A stretch of 64,000 bases of DNA. It comes from a virus. Under the pieces are notes generated by a model. It did not search any database, had not been told where the DNA came from, and saw only the letters and a list, made by a program, of their open reading frames with translations. The stretch covers positions 23,094 to 87,093 of IMG/VR virus record IMGVR_UViG_3300033156_000272, one strand, 5' to 3'. The position numbers and the translations under genes are program-made. Shown here piece by piece: positions 40,921-45,797 of this stretch (position 1 is its first letter; each line of letters begins with the position of its first letter).

Positions 40921-42441
40921 TCCTCCTTATCTGCTAGTTCTTTATTCGGCGTAAATACATTCACACCAATATGAACTCTAAGTTTTTGGCAGTTAGTTAG
41001 CACTGGTTACTCCCCCCATTCAGTTCCAGGAGGTGCACCAACAGGATTCTCTATATTCAGCTTACTCACCTTCTTAGTTAAGATGTCGATGTGCATTTGC
41101 ATGTATGATATGGTAGCACATAAAGCGTAATTGTCACAATTTGTACACCCTTCAAATTCGCAGAAAGCCCTAGGATCGGGTCCCAAGTGGTCTTTCAGGC
41201 TAGTGTTGCACTTAGAATAGGGTATTTTGGTTTTCGTCATACACTCTCCCTCCTCGCTTCTTTCTAATGGCCCCACTGGTCCCTTTACTATTCGATGAAG
41301 ATTCCTCTTCCCCGTTAGTACGTTTTCTGTCTTCATCAGAATCGGATTCCTCGAGTCCGGAACTCCCGCTTTCTTGTGCATCTTTACTAGTGGGTTCGGG
41401 GTCGTCGCTTTGGGGTTTATAGTTATCCCTCCGTAATTCCCTGGCGGAAGATCTCCTTGCTCTTTCCTTCTCGTAGTCTTCCTTATTGAATCTGCAGTAT
41501 TCATCTTCATCACCATTGTAGTATCTACATTCTCCATTCTCGTATAGGTGTGCTATCTTACATATAATCGCCGAGTTCTGTGAACAATGGTATATGGGAC
41601 ATAAGTATGGTGTTGATCTCTGTTGAGAATCCTTTTCCATATTGTTTCCTCCTTTCCTCTTCCATCTTGTCAAAGAAAAACTTGGCGGTCTTTCTGTCTA
41701 AGCTCCTTTCGTTCCAGATAGCCCATCGAACACATGCATCATCGAATGATTTTGCACTGTCTTCTATTGATTGATTGGGTAACCATATTGCAGATACTGG
41801 ACAATTTTCAACATGTGCCTTGAGCTTGTGGAGTACTTTCTCCTTTGCACCAAGCTCTACAAAACTACCTATAATTTCTTTTTCTATGTCAACTTCCTTT
41901 ATATTAAAATCAAAGGTTCCCGTCTTTGTAACTCCCTCTGCGTCTTTTACAAATACCGCAAATATCTCACCATTGACTCCATCCCAGGTGAATTGCGGTC
42001 TGCGAAAGTTAAACCTAAATCCGTGCTTTAAGAATAGTCTTTTTAGGGCCACTTTGTTGTTATGATATGCCTGGCCATCAAGTATAAACGTTCTCATTCT
42101 ACTCATAGATAGTATTCCCCATCTGGTTCTGGTATTGGAATTGGCGATATGCCAACGTGCTTCATCTCAACTTGCTCTACTGTGGATTCCTGCTCCTTCT
42201 TGAAGAGCGACTTTCCACATACCTCACTTACCAGTATGAACGCGAGGCCAGCTGCTTCCTTCCTATCTGACTGCATCATTATTATATCGACAGAACTTCT
42301 TCTGTAGATGCAACGAAGAGTTGGGTATCTGTCTTCCAATACTCGTCCCATTGTAGAGATTTCTGCTGGTCGTGCTTTTATAGTCAAGCAAGGCATATGG
42401 ATATGTATTTTCATATTTCATATAGTATATCGCTGTCGTCG

Positions 42442-42467
42442 TATATAAATGCGTTGTAATTACAACG
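42442..42467 (-). promoter_or_regulatory. Promoter GTAATTAC-N6-TTTATATA, overlapping the 16-bp palindrome CGTTGTAATTACAACG
   Basis: Read directly; intergenic. Confidence 0.7.
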
Positions 42468-42926
42468 ACCTACTCGTCATCAGACAGATTGGTACTCTCG
42501 CAGATTGGACAGTACATGTTGGGAGGATGGCCAAAGTCAGTGTGGCTGGTGTATCCGCAGTTGTTACATTCTATCATTGTATCACGTCTCTCCATGCTTT
42601 TGAGTCCCCGGTTTGACAAGACTTAATCCCTTTATCAATTTCCGCCTTCTCTTCGGGAGTGAGGTTTATGGTGTCTGTCTCTTCAATATAGTGAGGCATC
42701 TTCCTGAATGCAGTATTCGAGAAGCCAGAGAGCTTGCGGACAGCTCTAGAGAAAGCCATTTCAGTTCCAACAATAGTATCGAATGTATCGCTCTCGTTAC
42801 ATATTGATATTCCCTCTGCCTTGTATCCATCGTATGTATATACGATAACCTTGATCCATCGTCTTTCCGGCAACATTATTCTCACCACACGATATATCGT
42901 TAGTGGTAAAGCTCTTTCCGTGGTAG

Positions 42927-43000
42927 TGAGCCTGGAGGGATTCGAACCCCCGATCAATGGATTAAAAGTCCATAGCCATACCTAGCTAGGCCACAGGCTC
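42927..43000 (-). tRNA. tRNA-Lys(UUU)
   Basis: Acceptor GAGCCTG/CAGGCTC, anticodon arm ATGGA-CTTTTAA-TCCAT, T arm GGGGG-TTCGAAT-CCCTC. Confidence 0.93.
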
Positions 43001-43362
43001 TCTGAAGGCACGGTTAGCCACTCTGGATGCTTTCGAATGCAGCCCCGAGCTTTCTTTATTAGGTCATATGCATTATGTATTCCATTACTATGGTATTTGT
43101 ATAAGTAGTACGCTACTACTAGTGGACTTCTATCAATTCCAGCGTTACAGAATATGAGTACTTGTTTATTTGCATCACGATACGCGCGGATAATACTAGT
43201 GAGTGCGTTATAGTGATTCATGTTCACTTTCGTGGTTTTTTCATTGACATCAGCTATGTCACGACAATCAACAATGCGCCATCTACTATTATACTCATGG
43301 ATACTGATAAACTCTGCATCGTACACATCGCCGATCCATATTCCAGGGATAATCTCATCCAT
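42982..43362 (-). CDS. Dual-specificity phosphatase (CX5R)
   Basis: 'EIIPGIWIG', 'FCNAGIDRS', 'AYDLIKKAR'. Confidence 0.9.
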   Translation of the reverse strand: MDEIIPGIWIGDVYDAEFISIHEYNSRWRIVDCRDIADVNEKTTKVNMNHYNALTSIIRAYRDANKQVLIFCNAGIDRSPLVVAYYLYKYHSNGIHNAYDLIKKARGCIRKHPEWLTVPSESLWPS

Positions 43363-43547
43363 AATGACACCTTATTAGTTCCATTCGATTGTTATTTCAC
43401 CACTACATTCACCATCAGAACAGTATGCATTGATGTTCTTCTTTATCCAATCGAGTACATCGTCCTGGTATTTGTCCGTCAGTAGTTCCAGCATTTCTTC
43501 TACCATCTTGCATTCAGTATCCATCGTTCATTCCTCCTGATATTCAG

Positions 43548-43616
43548 ACCCGAGCGCAGGACTCAAACCTGCTTTTGTCGACGCATCAACTGAGACACAC
43601 TCAGGTGTCACCCGGG
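43548..43616 (-). ncRNA. tRNA-like RNA (acceptor and T arm, non-canonical middle)
   Basis: CCCGGGT/GCTCGGG; T arm GCAGG-TTTGAGT-CCTGC; internal CTGAG/CTCAG hairpin. Confidence 0.5.
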
Positions 43617-43625
43617 ATGATGAAT

Positions 43626-43791
43626 AGGCCGGGTAGGGATTTGAACCCACGACGGAAGTCCTGTTGCTAAGACTACTCGAACCGCGCGCCATGTACAAGC
43701 AACGTACGCTGAGATCTTTGTCTCGTAGGCGCTCTGGGAGGCCTCCTTAATGCACTCCCTTCTGGTGCATTACCTGACTATGCTACCGGCC
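43626..43791 (-). ncRNA. Expanded tRNA-like RNA (about 166 nt)
   Basis: GGCCGG/CCGGCC acceptor, D arm GCAT-AGTCAGGTA-ATGC, T loop TTCAAAT; a multi-hairpin insert replaces the anticodon arm. Confidence 0.65.
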
Positions 43792-43804
43792 ATTTTGCGA
43801 ATGT

Positions 43805-43878
43805 TGGTGCTCGCGGAAGGATTTGAACCTTCATCACCATAAAACACTGGTGTCATCGCCAGGTTAAACTACGCGAGC
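43805..43878 (-). tRNA. Atypical tRNA with encoded CCA and an 8-nt anticodon loop (identity undetermined)
   Basis: GCTCGCG/CGCGAGC-A-CCA; T arm GAAGG-TTCAAAT-CCTTC; ACCA-GTGTTTTA-TGGT. Confidence 0.6.
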
Positions 43879-43994
43879 AAGTCGTGGCTTTTTGATAACG
43901 CAGAAGCCTAACTGCCAACTTGGTCGGCTAATCACCCAGCCCGGTGGTAACACCATGGCCACTTCGCCTAGCCGAAACCATGCTCCAGGATTTT

Positions 43995-44093
43995 ATCGAA
44001 TTTTGTATCCTGTTCCCTAATCGTTCATCATTTTGAACTTTGACTCTTAATCGTTGAGTCCTGATGTTTGAATGTTGAACTTTCTAGTTCATC
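43995..44093 (-). repeat. About 12-13 degenerate 7-nt repeats (e.g. GTTCAAA, ATTCAAA, ACTCAAC)
   Basis: GTTCAAC ATTCAAA CATCAGG ACTCAAC GATTAAG AGTCAAA GTTCAAA (AT) GATGAAC GATTAGG GAACAGG ATACAAA. Confidence 0.7.
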
Positions 44094-44099
44094 AGTCTA

Positions 44100-44172
44100 T
44101 AATATGGTGGGATTCGAACCCACGACCTCAATCTCATATAGATTGCGCTCTACCAGACAGAGCTTCATATAT
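44100..44172 (-). ncRNA. tRNA-like domain embedded in the larger RNA (pseudo tRNA-Ile UAU)
   Basis: D arm GCTC/GAGC, CAATC-TATATGA-GATTG, T arm GTGGG-TTCGAAT-CCCAC; only a 5-bp acceptor, A8, A33, no CCA. Confidence 0.75.
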
Positions 44173-44260
44173 CCATCGAAGAACTCTTAACCCAGAGCTT
44201 AGGGGGAACGAGTTTACCCGCTCGTTCCACACGGGGGCGTGTCTTTAGGTTTTCGAGTGA

Positions 44261-44893
44261 TTAGCCGACGTTAATTGTTATCTTGGTCACGGCATTGCAC
44301 TCGCTCAAGGACTGGTCTACATCAGCCTTGAACTCATCTATCTCTTTGTCGAGTTTCTCGATGAGCTTCTCAATGCCTGCAGGATCAAAGAGTGACATAG
44401 CATTGGTATCACGATACGACTTGCTGATGTTCTCTACATCAATGTTCTGTACACCTTCTTTTCCCGCAATTTTCTCTAACATGGTTTTCAGGCTTACTTC
44501 CACACTGCTATTGGCCAACTCTACCTGGTCTTTGAGATGTGCAAACTGTGTTCTCATCTGCATGAGAAGAATTTCATCATACTGAATGCTACCCTTCCTC
44601 TCTATGGCACCCGCCACAGTATAACTTTCTCCTGCAATCTTTACAGAAGTAGATGCGTTCGACGCAACAACTGCGGTTTTGATGATGTTTCTGCGCTCAA
44701 TCATTGCACGGATACTCTGCAAGTTCTTTCTGCAATGTTTCTCCATATCTTCCTTCGAAGTACGGTGTACGGTAGTGGTCTCTTTTCCTCGTACTGCCGA
44801 TAGGAATATTGCATTTACGGTCTCCTTCAGTATGCGCTTATCGAGGAGCTTCAACTCCACTAGCGCACGTGTTACGGTCATTTCTTCCATCAT
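44261..44893 (-). CDS. DUF6847/DIP1984-like ('septicolysin'-annotated) coiled-coil protein
   Basis: 'TVTRALVELKLLDKRI', 'SNASTSVKIAGESYTVAGAIERK', 'VDQSLSECNAVTKITI'; family recognised from memory; GGAGG RBS. Confidence 0.6.
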   Translation of the reverse strand: MMEEMTVTRALVELKLLDKRILKETVNAIFLSAVRGKETTTVHRTSKEDMEKHCRKNLQSIRAMIERRNIIKTAVVASNASTSVKIAGESYTVAGAIERKGSIQYDEILLMQMRTQFAHLKDQVELANSSVEVSLKTMLEKIAGKEGVQNIDVENISKSYRDTNAMSLFDPAGIEKLIEKLDKEIDEFKADVDQSLSECNAVTKITINVG

Positions 44894-44904
44894 TCATTCC
44901 TCCG

Positions 44905-45195
44905 TTGGACGAGTCGGGAATTTAACCCATATAATCGTCCATGATGACATGTTGTTTCGTGAGAGCGACTCACTGGCACATACATGTAAAGCCAAGGCGA
45001 TTGCATCCGACATGCCCACCGTCGGGGAATATGTTACGACGTGTCTGGAGTCACACCAGATTGCGCAGGGGAAGCCTGCTGGTTCCCTTCACGTCGATAG
45101 AGTTGCCGGGTTTTTCTATACCGCGCCGGCTAGCGGTTCCAGCAAGGAGATGCTGGTTGCAGGGGTTTAGAGAGGGGTTCAGGGGGATTCGTCAA
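44905..45195 (-). ncRNA. About 290-nt highly structured RNA with paired ends and a T-arm-like 3' end
   Basis: GACGAATC/GACTCGTC-CA closing helix; GGG-TTAAATT-CCC; at least 7 hairpins; complementary loops. Confidence 0.65.
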
Positions 45196-45345
45196 TTTCT
45201 ACAGGCTTACCATACATTTGCATGGCTGCCTCTATTATTACGTGGCCCATTAGTAGTAGTTCCGATGGCTTCAAATTAGTATAGTGGAATTCTACGAGGT
45301 CATCCTCAATCCTTAGTTCTATTTTGCGACTCATTATACCACTCC

Positions 45346-45390
45346 TGGTGGGGGGTTGAACATAACGGCATGCTTAAAGTTCTTCCCCCC
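45346..45390 (-). ncRNA. Minihelix-like hairpin ending in ACCA
   Basis: GGGGGG-AA-GAAC...GTTC-AA-CCCCCC-ACCA. Confidence 0.45.
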
Positions 45391-45399
45391 TTGATGTAG

Positions 45400-45461
45400 T
45401 GGGAACGGCAGGACTTTAACCTGCGTCATCTTCTGCAGAGAATCGTTTGCTCCACGCTCCC
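45400..45461 (-). ncRNA. Truncated tRNA-like RNA (62 nt)
   Basis: GGGAGCG/CGTTCCC-A; T arm GCAGG-TTAAAGT-CCTGC; vestigial D and anticodon arms. Confidence 0.55.
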
Positions 45462-45797
45462 TTACTGTAACTCATCAATCATTATTGTTTTGTGCTTAAC
45501 AGGACTTTCCCACTCTTCATCATTGATTTGCGCAATGAGCGCTTCCGACCACCATTCTACAGCATGCTGGTGTTCTCCGGTTACCACTCGTTTGTCTACT
45601 GTGACAGACTTCCCTGATATAATTGCACCGTGTTCTCTAAGTCTATTCTTTGCTTCCCTGAACGGATAACAAGATACAGTTACCCCTCCAAGTATTCTAT
45701 GGAAGATGCTTATGGCAGCACAAATGCCACCTATAATCAACCCTTGCTTTTTTGCTTCATCAACCAATGCCTGCACCTTCTCGTCTTCCCAGAACAT
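45462..45797 (-). pseudogene. N-terminally truncated DJ-1/PfpI-family protein
   Basis: 'WEDEKVQALV...IIGGICAA...VSCYP...GA....SVTVDKRVVTG'; the family's N-terminal third is absent. Confidence 0.6.

What the first reader, a model, noticed from the sequence alone, without database searches (positions are those of the whole stretch)
44100..44172. tRNA mimic nested inside the closed RNA
Seen: canonical D, anticodon and T arms but only a 5-bp acceptor, A8, A33 and no CCA; nominal anticodon UAU. Known: archaea normally read AUA with agmatidine-modified CAU, so UAU is rare. Inference: a bait or sensor domain whose cleavage could open the RNP, or a tRNA gene that inserted into a tolerant loop.
Basis: partly seen in the sequence, partly recalled or inferred. 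Interest (0 to 1): 0.7.

Follow-up and report, generated by a model that had tools for sequence, protein, structure and literature searches.

The report
tRNA-shaped module inside a phage RNA
A tRNA-like gene with a nominal isoleucine anticodon sits in the variable middle of a widespread but undescribed virus RNA, where relatives sometimes carry other tRNA look-alikes, so it is probably a built-in tRNA-shaped domain, not an ordinary tRNA.

Summary
On the minus strand at 44100-44172, ARAGORN and Rfam both call a tRNA (40.6 bits, anticodon UAU). It has clean D, anticodon and T arms, a 5-bp all-but-one A-U acceptor, A8, A33, G37 and no CCA.

The "closed RNA" around it (43923-44269) is real. It belongs to a conserved ~255-430-nt RNA family that follows the phrog_1491 gene in 231 of 244 loci examined: T5-like and other large phages, and Bacillota chromosomes. 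Its closing helix covaries strongly, and no Rfam family matches it. Earlier follow-ups of this scan found the same family in T5-like phages.

The tRNA lies in the family's variable linker. tRNA-like modules occur there in 11 of 135 sequence clusters:
- 4 in normal topology, this one included;
- 3 circularly permuted, with weak, below-cutoff matches to the Rfam YrlA model;
- 4 as a T-arm only.

Free-standing tRNA-Ile(UAU) genes beside the same RNA elsewhere have the canonical CUUAUAA loop; this one has UAUAUGA.

Best reading (0.5): a tRNA-derived accessory domain kept inside the RNA. Rivals: a working AUA decoder cut out by RNase P/Z (0.3; AUA is 49% of this virus's Ile codons), or a decaying relic (0.15). 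The bait/sensor idea is untested. No expression data could be obtained.

The parts
44100..44172 (-). tRNA-like module, nominal anticodon UAU. Acceptor 5 bp, A8/U14, A33, G37, intact D/T elbow, no CCA.
   Evidence: ARAGORN; Rfam RF00005 40.6 bits; fold
43923..44269 (-). Whole closed RNA (347 nt), a member of the conserved RNA family that follows the phrog_1491 gene.
   Evidence: nhmmer 3'-domain HMM E 9.3e-29; fold z -4.33, 0 of 100 shuffles as stable; family covariation
44254..44269 (-). P1 closing helix, 5' arm. It overlaps the TAA stop of the upstream gene.
43923..43938 (-). P1 closing helix, 3' arm, preceded by the conserved GGCTG.
44205..44241 (-). 5' domain. Two interleaved helices (CCCG..CGGG and GGAACGAG..CTCGTTCC) read as an H-type pseudoknot. 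It is preceded by the conserved CGAAAACC-TAAAG junction (44242-44253).
   Evidence: Read by eye on the 5'-domain alignment. No pair count was made and covariation was not tallied.
44173..44204 (-). Linker, 5' spacer before the tRNA-like module. 44177-44184 can pair with 44087-44094 (7 of 8).
   Evidence: Sequence. The pairing was worked out by hand; the MFE fold pairs this stretch differently, so it is not established.
44086..44099 (-). Linker, 3' spacer after the tRNA-like module.
   Evidence: sequence
44001..44085 (-). A-rich array with 7-nt periodicity (AAAGNTC-type units), conserved in the family.
   Evidence: alignments
43939..44000 (-). 3' domain. Holds the conserved TTCGATAAAATCC (43988-44000), a covarying 5-bp helix, a hairpin and GGCTG.
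44261..44893 (-). 210-aa phrog_1491 gene (labelled 'tail fiber protein', function unknown), the constant upstream neighbour of the RNA.
   Evidence: PHROGs E 1.1e-57; 122 relatives; 732 phage records

Best explanation
The element is a tRNA-derived module in the variable linker of a conserved, so far unnamed viral RNA. That RNA is transcribed just behind the phrog_1491 gene.

Shown:
- The RNA family and its covarying closing helix.
- The module sits between the 5' pseudoknot domain and the A-rich heptamer array.
- Relatives carry tRNA-like modules at that same place, in normal, permuted or T-arm-only form.

Inferred:
- In this virus the module stays covalently part of the RNA as an L-shaped domain that shows a tRNA elbow and body. 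It would be read by proteins that recognise tRNA shape, such as processing, modification or tRNA-targeting enzymes, or by the partner protein.
- It no longer works as a normal decoder, because the U-turn base (33), position 37 and the end of the acceptor stem are off-type.
- It probably began as a viral tRNA gene that landed in, or was recruited into, the linker.
For: 1. Real tRNA fold with the core kept. All 14 pairs of the D, anticodon and T stems are Watson-Crick. G18G19, the UUCGAAU T loop, G15/C48 and G53-C61 are present, and A8/U14 are changed reciprocally.
2. The decoding and acceptor ends are off-type. The loop is UAUAUGA, against CUUAUAA in both free-standing tRNA-Ile(UAU) genes next to the same RNA family (L015, L056). 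The acceptor has 5 bp and there is no CCA.
3. The score is low for this setting. In one search, 35 of 38 free-standing tRNA hits score above 40.6 bits.
4. The host RNA is real. The 3'-domain HMM hits 82 of 84 sequences and 231 of 244. P1 is at least 12 bp in 50 of 82 loci, against at least 10 bp in 37 of 246 offset control windows. In P1, 12 of 14 pairs show double changes.
5. The module is optional and recurrent. Over all 80 IMG/VR loci, Rfam finds a tRNA inside the RNA in 2 (L026 and L050). L097 adds one at 40.2 bits with C37. In all, 11 of 135 clusters hold a tRNA-like module in the linker.
6. Three lineages (L075, L156, L239) carry a permuted form: T arm, then a loop-closed acceptor, then a D arm, joined to the RNA through the anticodon stem. 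That form cannot decode. These match Rfam YrlA below its cutoff (38.9, 36.3 and 29.2 bits against 69; fold).
7. In the T-arm-only clade the stem covaries (GCTGG/CCAGC against CGGGG/CCCCG) while the loop is kept.
8. Chen et al. 2014 (PMC4201824, passages read) say that only the YrlA with a 7-bp acceptor is cut by RNase P. [quoted passage not shown]
Against: - The anticodon UAU fits the virus's commonest Ile codon: ATA is 865 of 1755 Ile codons in 98 ORFs. The only high-scoring tRNA in the genome is Lys(UUU). That is the usual pattern for working phage tRNAs.
- ARAGORN and Rfam both call the element above their default thresholds.
- L026's nested tRNA is nearly canonical (61.6 bits), so nested tRNAs may simply be tRNA genes.
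- From recall, not tested here: substitutions at U33 weaken but do not abolish tRNA function in vitro.
- About 92% of clusters lack any such module, so the RNA does not need it.
- This virus has no close relative (best protein identity 47%), so selection on this copy cannot be measured.
- There are no expression or processing data.
Confidence: 0.5

Rival explanations
1. It is a working viral tRNA-Ile(UAU). It is transcribed within the RNA precursor, released by RNase P and RNase Z, given CCA and charged. That supplies an AUA decoder and leaves the host RNA as two pieces held together by the 16-bp P1 helix.
For: - ATA is 49% of Ile codons, 39 per 1000.
- The cloverleaf and tertiary pairs are intact, and both tRNA finders call it.
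- It lies in a tRNA island with tRNA-Lys(UUU).
- In relatives, tRNAs abut the RNA: 5 nt after P1 in L056 and 17 nt in L010. This fits co-transcription and shared processing.
Against: - A33 and G37 differ from the CUUAUAA loop of free-standing phage tRNA-Ile(UAU).
- The acceptor has only 5 bp, 4 of them A-U.
- The score lies in the lowest tenth of neighbouring tRNAs.
- Other normal-topology nested copies are also defective: L050 lacks a proper acceptor (Rfam model positions 5-66 only), and L097 has C37.
Confidence: 0.3
2. It is a decaying tRNA pseudogene with no function, left in a part of the RNA that tolerates insertions.
For: - Low score, off-type bases at 8, 14, 33 and 37, and a frayed acceptor end.
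- Only 11 of 135 clusters have any module, and each normal-topology case is a singleton cluster.
- The linker varies from roughly 30 to 150 nt without conservation.
Against: - All 14 pairs in the three inner stems and all elbow bases are intact. The 8/14 change is reciprocal rather than one-sided, and random decay should also hit the stems.
- Permuted and T-arm-only modules elsewhere are kept, with covarying stems.
Confidence: 0.15
3. It is a bait or sensor. A tRNA-targeting nuclease or processing enzyme cuts the module and so switches the ribonucleoprotein on or off.
For: Indirect only:
- The module sits between the two conserved halves of the RNA, so a cut would leave them joined by P1 alone.
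- The M. smegmatis YrlA tRNA-like domain is cut by RNase P and stays bound as two halves (PMC4201824, passage read).
Against: - No data bear on cleavage, on a nuclease, or on protein binding.
- Most family members lack the module.
Confidence: 0.05

Closest known systems
GOLLD RNA with a tRNA in its linker (large ornate phage RNA found near tRNA islands)
   Same: - A structured phage non-coding RNA in a tRNA island.
- It carries a tRNA between two conserved domains (Kretsch et al., passages read).
- Its function is unknown.
   Different: - No Rfam match to GOLLD or ROOL here, or in any of the 80 IMG/VR loci.
- This RNA is 255-430 nt, not ~800 nt.
- It has a different architecture.
- It is always tied to one protein gene (phrog_1491).
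YrlA / bacterial Y RNAs (Rfam RF02553) with a tRNA-like domain (Chen et al. 2014, PMC4201824)
   Same: - A non-coding RNA closed by a long terminal stem and carrying a tRNA-shaped domain that does not decode.
- Three family members (L075, L156, L239) hold a module of the same permuted topology. They match the YrlA model over the T arm, acceptor hairpin and D arm.
   Different: - The matches fall far below the family cutoff (29-39 bits against 69), and the Ro-binding stem is not matched.
- The window's own module has normal tRNA topology and gives no YrlA hit at E up to 10.
- The neighbouring protein is not Ro60/Rsr: Pfam finds nothing and it has no solved relative.
Ordinary phage tRNA-Ile(UAU) genes
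   Same: - Cloverleaf and UAU anticodon.
- Lies in a viral tRNA cluster.
- Matches heavy AUA use.
- About 79% identity over 58-59 nt to Streptomyces phage tRNA-Ile.
   Different: - A33 and G37 in place of U33 and A37.
- A 5-bp acceptor.
- A8/U14 in place of U8/A14.
- Embedded inside another RNA gene.
The same phrog_1491-associated RNA in T5-like phages
   Same: - Same family: a T5-like locus (L082) has the 3' domain (E 8e-8) and a 21-bp P1.
- Same position behind the same gene.
   Different: The T5-like copy has no tRNA-like module in its linker.

Membership tests
tRNA (Rfam RF00005), canonical elongator tRNA-Ile(UAU) | Cloverleaf scoring above the family threshold | tested here: met
   40.6 bits against 29. 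ARAGORN calls it at default settings.
tRNA (Rfam RF00005), canonical elongator tRNA-Ile(UAU) | 7-bp acceptor stem with a free discriminator base (plus CCA, encoded or added) | tested here: not met
   5 bp, then U2/U71 and A1/A72 mismatches. No CCA is encoded. Whether CCA is added cannot be tested here.
tRNA (Rfam RF00005), canonical elongator tRNA-Ile(UAU) | U33 and A37 in a 7-nt anticodon loop | tested here: not met
   The loop is UAUAUGA (A33, G37). Free-standing tRNA-Ile(UAU) in L015 and L056 have CUUAUAA.
tRNA (Rfam RF00005), canonical elongator tRNA-Ile(UAU) | Core and elbow tertiary bases (U8-A14, G15-C48, G18G19, T54-A58, C56, G53-C61) | tested here: inconclusive
   All are present except 8/14, which read A8/U14. 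That this reciprocal change keeps the pair is inference.
tRNA (Rfam RF00005), canonical elongator tRNA-Ile(UAU) | Processed to ~75 nt and aminoacylated | not testable with these tools
   No sequencing run was listed.
phrog_1491-associated structured RNA (unnamed, not in Rfam 15) | Lies directly behind a phrog_1491 gene on the same strand | tested here: met
   The gene is 44261-44893(-), phrog_1491 E 1.1e-57. The RNA starts 8 nt before the end of the stop codon.
phrog_1491-associated structured RNA (unnamed, not in Rfam 15) | Conserved 3' domain (heptamer array, TTCGATAAAATCC, covarying helix, GGCTG) | tested here: met
   nhmmer E 9.3e-29 at 43927-44100; alignment. The window sequence was among the 23 sequences used to build that HMM, so its own score is partly circular. 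The 59 other hits were not training sequences.
phrog_1491-associated structured RNA (unnamed, not in Rfam 15) | Long closing helix P1 joining the two ends | tested here: met
   16 bp. Covariation of P1 across 26 members is shown.
GOLLD / ROOL RNAs | Match to the Rfam covariance model | tested here: not met
   No hit at the gathering score in the window, and none at E up to 10 in 42000-45500.
YrlA (Rfam RF02553) | Match to the covariance model; permuted tRNA-like domain on a Ro-binding stem | tested here: not met
   No hit in 42000-45500 at E up to 10. The window's module has normal topology. Relatives L156, L075 and L239 match only below the cutoff.

The most novel reading that the evidence does not exclude
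The phrog_1491 protein and its RNA form a widespread viral and Bacillota ribonucleoprotein that acts on, or hides from, the cell's tRNA-handling machinery. tRNA-shaped modules were recruited into its linker at least seven separate times, in two topologies (normal, as here, and YrlA-like permuted). They serve as docking or decoy domains, for example against tRNA-cleaving defence nucleases. This would be a phage counterpart of the Ro60-Y RNA particle.
Probability: 0.2. Interest if true: 0.8.

Novelty: new variant of a known kind. Interest (0 to 1): 0.6.

Why it matters
Large phage RNAs that sit among tRNA genes (GOLLD, ROOL) still have no known function. Here a third, smaller and far more widespread family repeatedly takes tRNA-shaped modules into the same linker, including permuted modules that cannot decode. 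It is present in T5-like phages, in other large phages and in many Bacillota chromosomes, and it is always tied to one protein gene. That recurrence links the family to the tRNA world and gives a concrete handle for experiments: which tRNA-binding factor recognises the module, and is the RNA cut there? For annotation, it warns that a 'tRNA-Ile' call in such a place should not be counted as added decoding capacity without checking the loop and the acceptor.

Tried and rejected
- **Close relatives of the virus.** Single-protein scans of viral contigs found none, with the 210-aa protein or with PolB. A pattern scan for the tRNA body with a free anticodon loop also found none. No within-lineage comparison of this copy was therefore possible.
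- **DNA search of cultured phages with the whole RNA.** It found only generic tRNA similarity (9 records, 12-14% of the query covered).
- **Expression.** The look-up of sequencing runs listed no run. This is no evidence either way.
- **ARAGORN at 80% thresholds on the RNA regions.** It gave many calls on both strands with odd anticodons. I judged these unreliable and did not use them.
- **MAFFT alignment of full-length RNAs (A2, 439 columns).** It misaligns the 5' pseudoknot and the linker and was too wide for build_rna_model. No covariance model was built, and family membership rests on an nhmmer profile and helix searches in my own scripts.
- **Splicing-type bulge-helix-bulge motif.** Considered for P1 and rejected, because P1 is an uninterrupted 16-bp helix.
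- **Transposon-like terminal inverted repeats.** Considered and rejected, because the arms differ in sequence in every locus yet stay complementary, as an RNA helix would.
- **Function of the neighbouring protein.**
  - Pfam found nothing.
  - A PDB profile search found only coiled-coil noise, best E 0.021.
  - The protein atlas gave unnamed clusters and a weak DUF6847 lead at 0.87.
- **Host domain: not settled.**
  - PolB's best cultured matches are haloarchaeal tailed viruses at 25% identity.
  - There is a weak histone-fold hit below the cutoff.
  - One relative lies on a Bathyarchaeia MAG contig.
  - The module's relatives are otherwise bacterial.
- **Literature.** Four full-text searches turned up no description of this RNA family. 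Fremin et al. 2023 (PMC10690425, passages read) list 10,006 candidate viral RNAs in supplements that I could not open, and this family may be among them.

Full report
**What is at the coordinates**

The window is the last 64 kb of an 87,093-bp IMG/VR virus record with direct terminal repeats. It is a tailed virus with a tape-measure-like protein and a family B DNA polymerase.

On the minus strand, ARAGORN calls tRNA-Ile(tat) at 44098-44173. Rfam's tRNA model matches 44100-44172 at 40.6 bits, against a gathering score of 29, with E 3.8e-5 for the whole window.

The cmscan alignment and the sequence give:
- **Acceptor:** AUAUAUG / CAUAUUA. Only G7-C66 to A3-U70 pair.
- **Positions 8 and 9:** A8 and A9.
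- **D arm:** stem GCUC/GAGC. The loop reads U14 G15 ... G18 G19 ... A21.
- **Position 26:** G.
- **Anticodon arm:** stem CAAUC/GAUUG, loop U32 A33 U34 A35 U36 G37 A38.
- **Variable loop:** AGGUC.
- **T arm:** GUGGG-UUCGAAU-CCCAC.
- **3' end:** no CCA.

Two things were not noted: G37, and the reciprocal change at the 8/14 tertiary pair (A8/U14 where tRNAs have U8/A14). That this keeps the pair is my inference.

Folded alone, the stretch gives the cloverleaf with a 5-bp acceptor. It can also extend the anticodon stem by U32-A38, leaving a 5-nt loop.

**The surrounding "closed RNA" is real**

A perfect 13-nt inverted repeat (43923-43935 / 44257-44269), 16 bp with G-U pairs, encloses 347 nt. That stretch folds far better than shuffles: z -4.33, with 0 of 100 shuffles as stable.

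The 5' arm overlaps the stop codon of a 210-aa ORF (44261-44893, minus strand). That ORF is a member of phrog_1491 (E 1.1e-57). The phrog carries the label "tail fiber protein", but no function is known:
- Pfam finds nothing.
- A PDB profile search finds only coiled-coil noise.
- The protein atlas gives unnamed clusters.

The protein has 122 relatives at E <= 0.001 among 303 candidates. It occurs in 732 cultured phage records, including T5-like Salmonella and Escherichia phages, Pseudomonas Otagovirus, Bacillus Bastillevirinae, Vibrio phages and jumbo phages. In each of the three records I opened, 400-500 unannotated bases follow the gene.

I fetched 80 viral, 80 metagenomic and 80 prokaryotic-genome loci with an alignment of the protein. 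A profile of the RNA's 3' domain, built in my own script, hits directly downstream of the gene in 82 of 84 sequences in the first round. Over all sequences it hits in 231 of 244. The metagenome misses are mostly short contigs that end close behind the gene. The window's RNA was one of the 23 sequences used to build that profile.

The closing helix is at least 12 bp in 50 of 82 loci. In control windows offset by 150-350 nt, it reaches at least 10 bp in 37 of 246, with a maximum of 14. Its sequence differs from locus to locus while the arms stay complementary. On 26 short members, RNAalifold finds P1 with double-sided changes at 12 of 14 pairs. It also finds a second 5-bp helix in which 17 of 26 sequences changed on both sides at two pairs.

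The shared plan of the family is:
1. P1.
2. A conserved CGAAAAYC-TAAAC junction.
3. Two interleaved helices that I read by eye as a pseudoknot.
4. A variable linker.
5. An A-rich array with 7-nt period.
6. The conserved TTCGATAAAATCC.
7. A helix and a hairpin.
8. GGCTG.
9. The return strand of P1.

No Rfam 15 family matches the RNA in the window or in any of the 80 viral loci. Four literature searches found no description, but the supplements of Fremin et al. 2023 could not be opened. Earlier follow-ups of this scan reached the same view of this family in T5-like phages. I confirmed that link myself: locus L082 has a 21-bp P1 and a 3'-domain hit.

The helix overlaps the stop codon only in this window. 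Elsewhere it starts 4-38 nt after the stop.

**Where the tRNA sits, and what relatives have there**

The tRNA occupies the variable linker, between the 5' domain and the heptamer array. The linker is unconserved and ranges from roughly 30 to 150 nt.

Over all 80 viral loci, Rfam finds a tRNA inside the RNA in 2:
- **L026:** 61.6 bits, anticodon UGA on a short-variable-arm body.
- **L050:** 48.8 bits, model positions 5-66 only, so no proper acceptor.

All other tRNAs lie outside. Some lie immediately after P1: 5 nt in L056 and 17 nt in L010. The metagenomic set adds L097 at 40.2 bits, a long-variable-arm body with loop CUAAACA, which puts a pyrimidine at position 37.

A T-arm search found such hairpins in 10 of 82 linkers and in 0 of 82 equal-sized coding controls.

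Three lineages (L075, L156, L239) hold a circularly permuted tRNA-like domain. The order is anticodon-stem strand, variable loop, T arm, a loop-closed acceptor (7 bp in L075), D arm, then the other anticodon-stem strand. All three match the Rfam YrlA model across exactly those elements. The scores are below its cutoff: 38.9, 36.3 and 29.2 bits against 69, with E 1e-5 to 6e-3.

A further clade keeps only a T-arm minihelix whose stem covaries.

After removing duplicates, there are 196 unique RNAs in 135 clusters at 85% identity. Of those clusters, 4 have a normal-topology module, 3 a permuted one and 4 a T-arm only. These are lower bounds. The metagenomic and genomic sets were screened only with ARAGORN at default settings and a motif search, apart from the eight loci.

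**Working tRNA or built-in domain?**

*For a working tRNA:*
- ATA is the commonest Ile codon of this virus: 865 of 1755, or 39 per 1000 codons, in 98 ORFs.
- The one high-scoring tRNA of the genome is Lys(UUU).
- The inner stems and the elbow are flawless.

*Against:*
- The two free-standing tRNA-Ile(UAU) genes that lie beside the same RNA family in other viruses both have the standard loop CUUAUAA. This one has UAUAUGA.
- The acceptor has 5 pairs, 4 of them A-U.
- Its score is exceeded by 35 of 38 free-standing tRNA hits.
- Two of the other three normal-topology modules show defects of the same sort (L050, L097).
- The permuted modules show that this linker keeps tRNA-shaped bodies that cannot decode.

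Chen et al. 2014 (PMC4201824, passages read) report that among Y RNAs only the one with a 7-bp acceptor is cut by RNase P. They call acceptor length a major determinant of that cleavage. By that rule, this module would be a poor substrate, which is inference.

I therefore put:
- 0.5 on a tRNA-derived domain retained within the RNA;
- 0.3 on a released, working tRNA;
- 0.15 on a functionless relic;
- 0.05 on the specific bait or sensor switch.

**Comparison with what is known**

The nearest precedents are:
- tRNAs in the linker of GOLLD RNA (Kretsch et al., passage read);
- the tRNA-like domain of YrlA/Y RNAs.

The window's RNA is a member of neither family, because both model matches were tested and not met. 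It works like them in one respect: a structured RNA closed by a long stem carries a tRNA-shaped part.

The host is unresolved. There are hints of an archaeal host:
- PolB is nearest to haloarchaeal viruses, at 25% identity.
- A weak histone-fold hit falls below the cutoff.
- One relative lies on a Bathyarchaeia MAG contig.
- AUA and AGA use is heavy.

Against these stands a family that is otherwise bacterial and bacteriophage-borne.

**Limits**

- No RNA data could be obtained.
- No covariance model of the family was built.
- The pseudoknot and the possible helix that encloses the module in the linker (44177-44184 with 44087-44094) were read by hand and are not established.

Noticed in passing
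window 43808-43878 (-): A second tRNA-like gene lies 45 nt after the RNA's closing helix (Rfam 43.9 bits). Its anticodon stem CACCA/UGGUG encloses an 8-nt loop, and ARAGORN cannot name an anticodon. So another off-type decoder sits in the same island.
   Followed up: partly
window 45400-45461 (-): A weak tRNA match (30.4 bits, E 0.0014) with a much shortened D region and anticodon loop.
   Followed up: no
window 43626-43791 (-): A stretch with tRNA-like ends (a GGCCGG... 5' end and a TTCAAAT T-loop) around about 100 nt of extra structure. Neither ARAGORN nor Rfam calls it, and by hand the T stem has only 3 good pairs.
   Followed up: partly
window 43520-43537 and 44886-44903: A near-identical 18-nt repeat covers the ribosome-binding site and start of the phrog_1491 gene, and also the start of a small ORF at about 43374-43526. 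Repeat D11 (43492-43506 / 44879-44893) extends it. This may be a duplicated gene start.
   Followed up: no
L022 2651-2738, L027 2651-2738, L012 4410-4517: Rfam skipping-rope RNA lies about 260 nt upstream of the phrog_1491 gene in two loci. A drum RNA lies about 430 nt downstream of the family RNA in a third. Several orphan phage RNA classes therefore cluster around this gene.
   Followed up: no
L164-L243 (prokaryotic genomes): The gene-plus-RNA module is present in 80 of 80 genome loci. Most are Bacillota chromosomes (Brevibacillus, Bacillus pumilus group, Sporosarcina, Psychrobacillus). Only 6 of the 80 have any tRNA within 1.5 kb, so the tie to tRNA islands is a phage trait and not a property of the module.
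   Followed up: partly
L175 (Candidatus Bathyarchaeia MAG contig, 59 kb): One relative of the module (43% protein identity, 3'-domain E 3.8e-25) lies on a contig binned as archaeal. It may be an archaeal virus or a binning error.
   Followed up: no
L239 2153-2361: This linker holds two T-arm hairpins. The second belongs to a YrlA-like permuted module, so the RNA may hold two tRNA-like parts.
   Followed up: partly
window 42982-43362 (-) and 45462-45797 (-): A dual-specificity phosphatase domain protein (Pfam DSPc, E 2.4e-14) and a short DJ-1/PfpI-like protein (E 2.3e-7, covering only the C-terminal half of the profile) flank the tRNA island.
   Followed up: no
whole virus record (G000): Codon use is rich in ATA (49% of Ile) and AGA (38% of Arg) at about 42-45% G+C. 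This is unusual for bacteria of that composition and is one hint of an archaeal host.
   Followed up: partly
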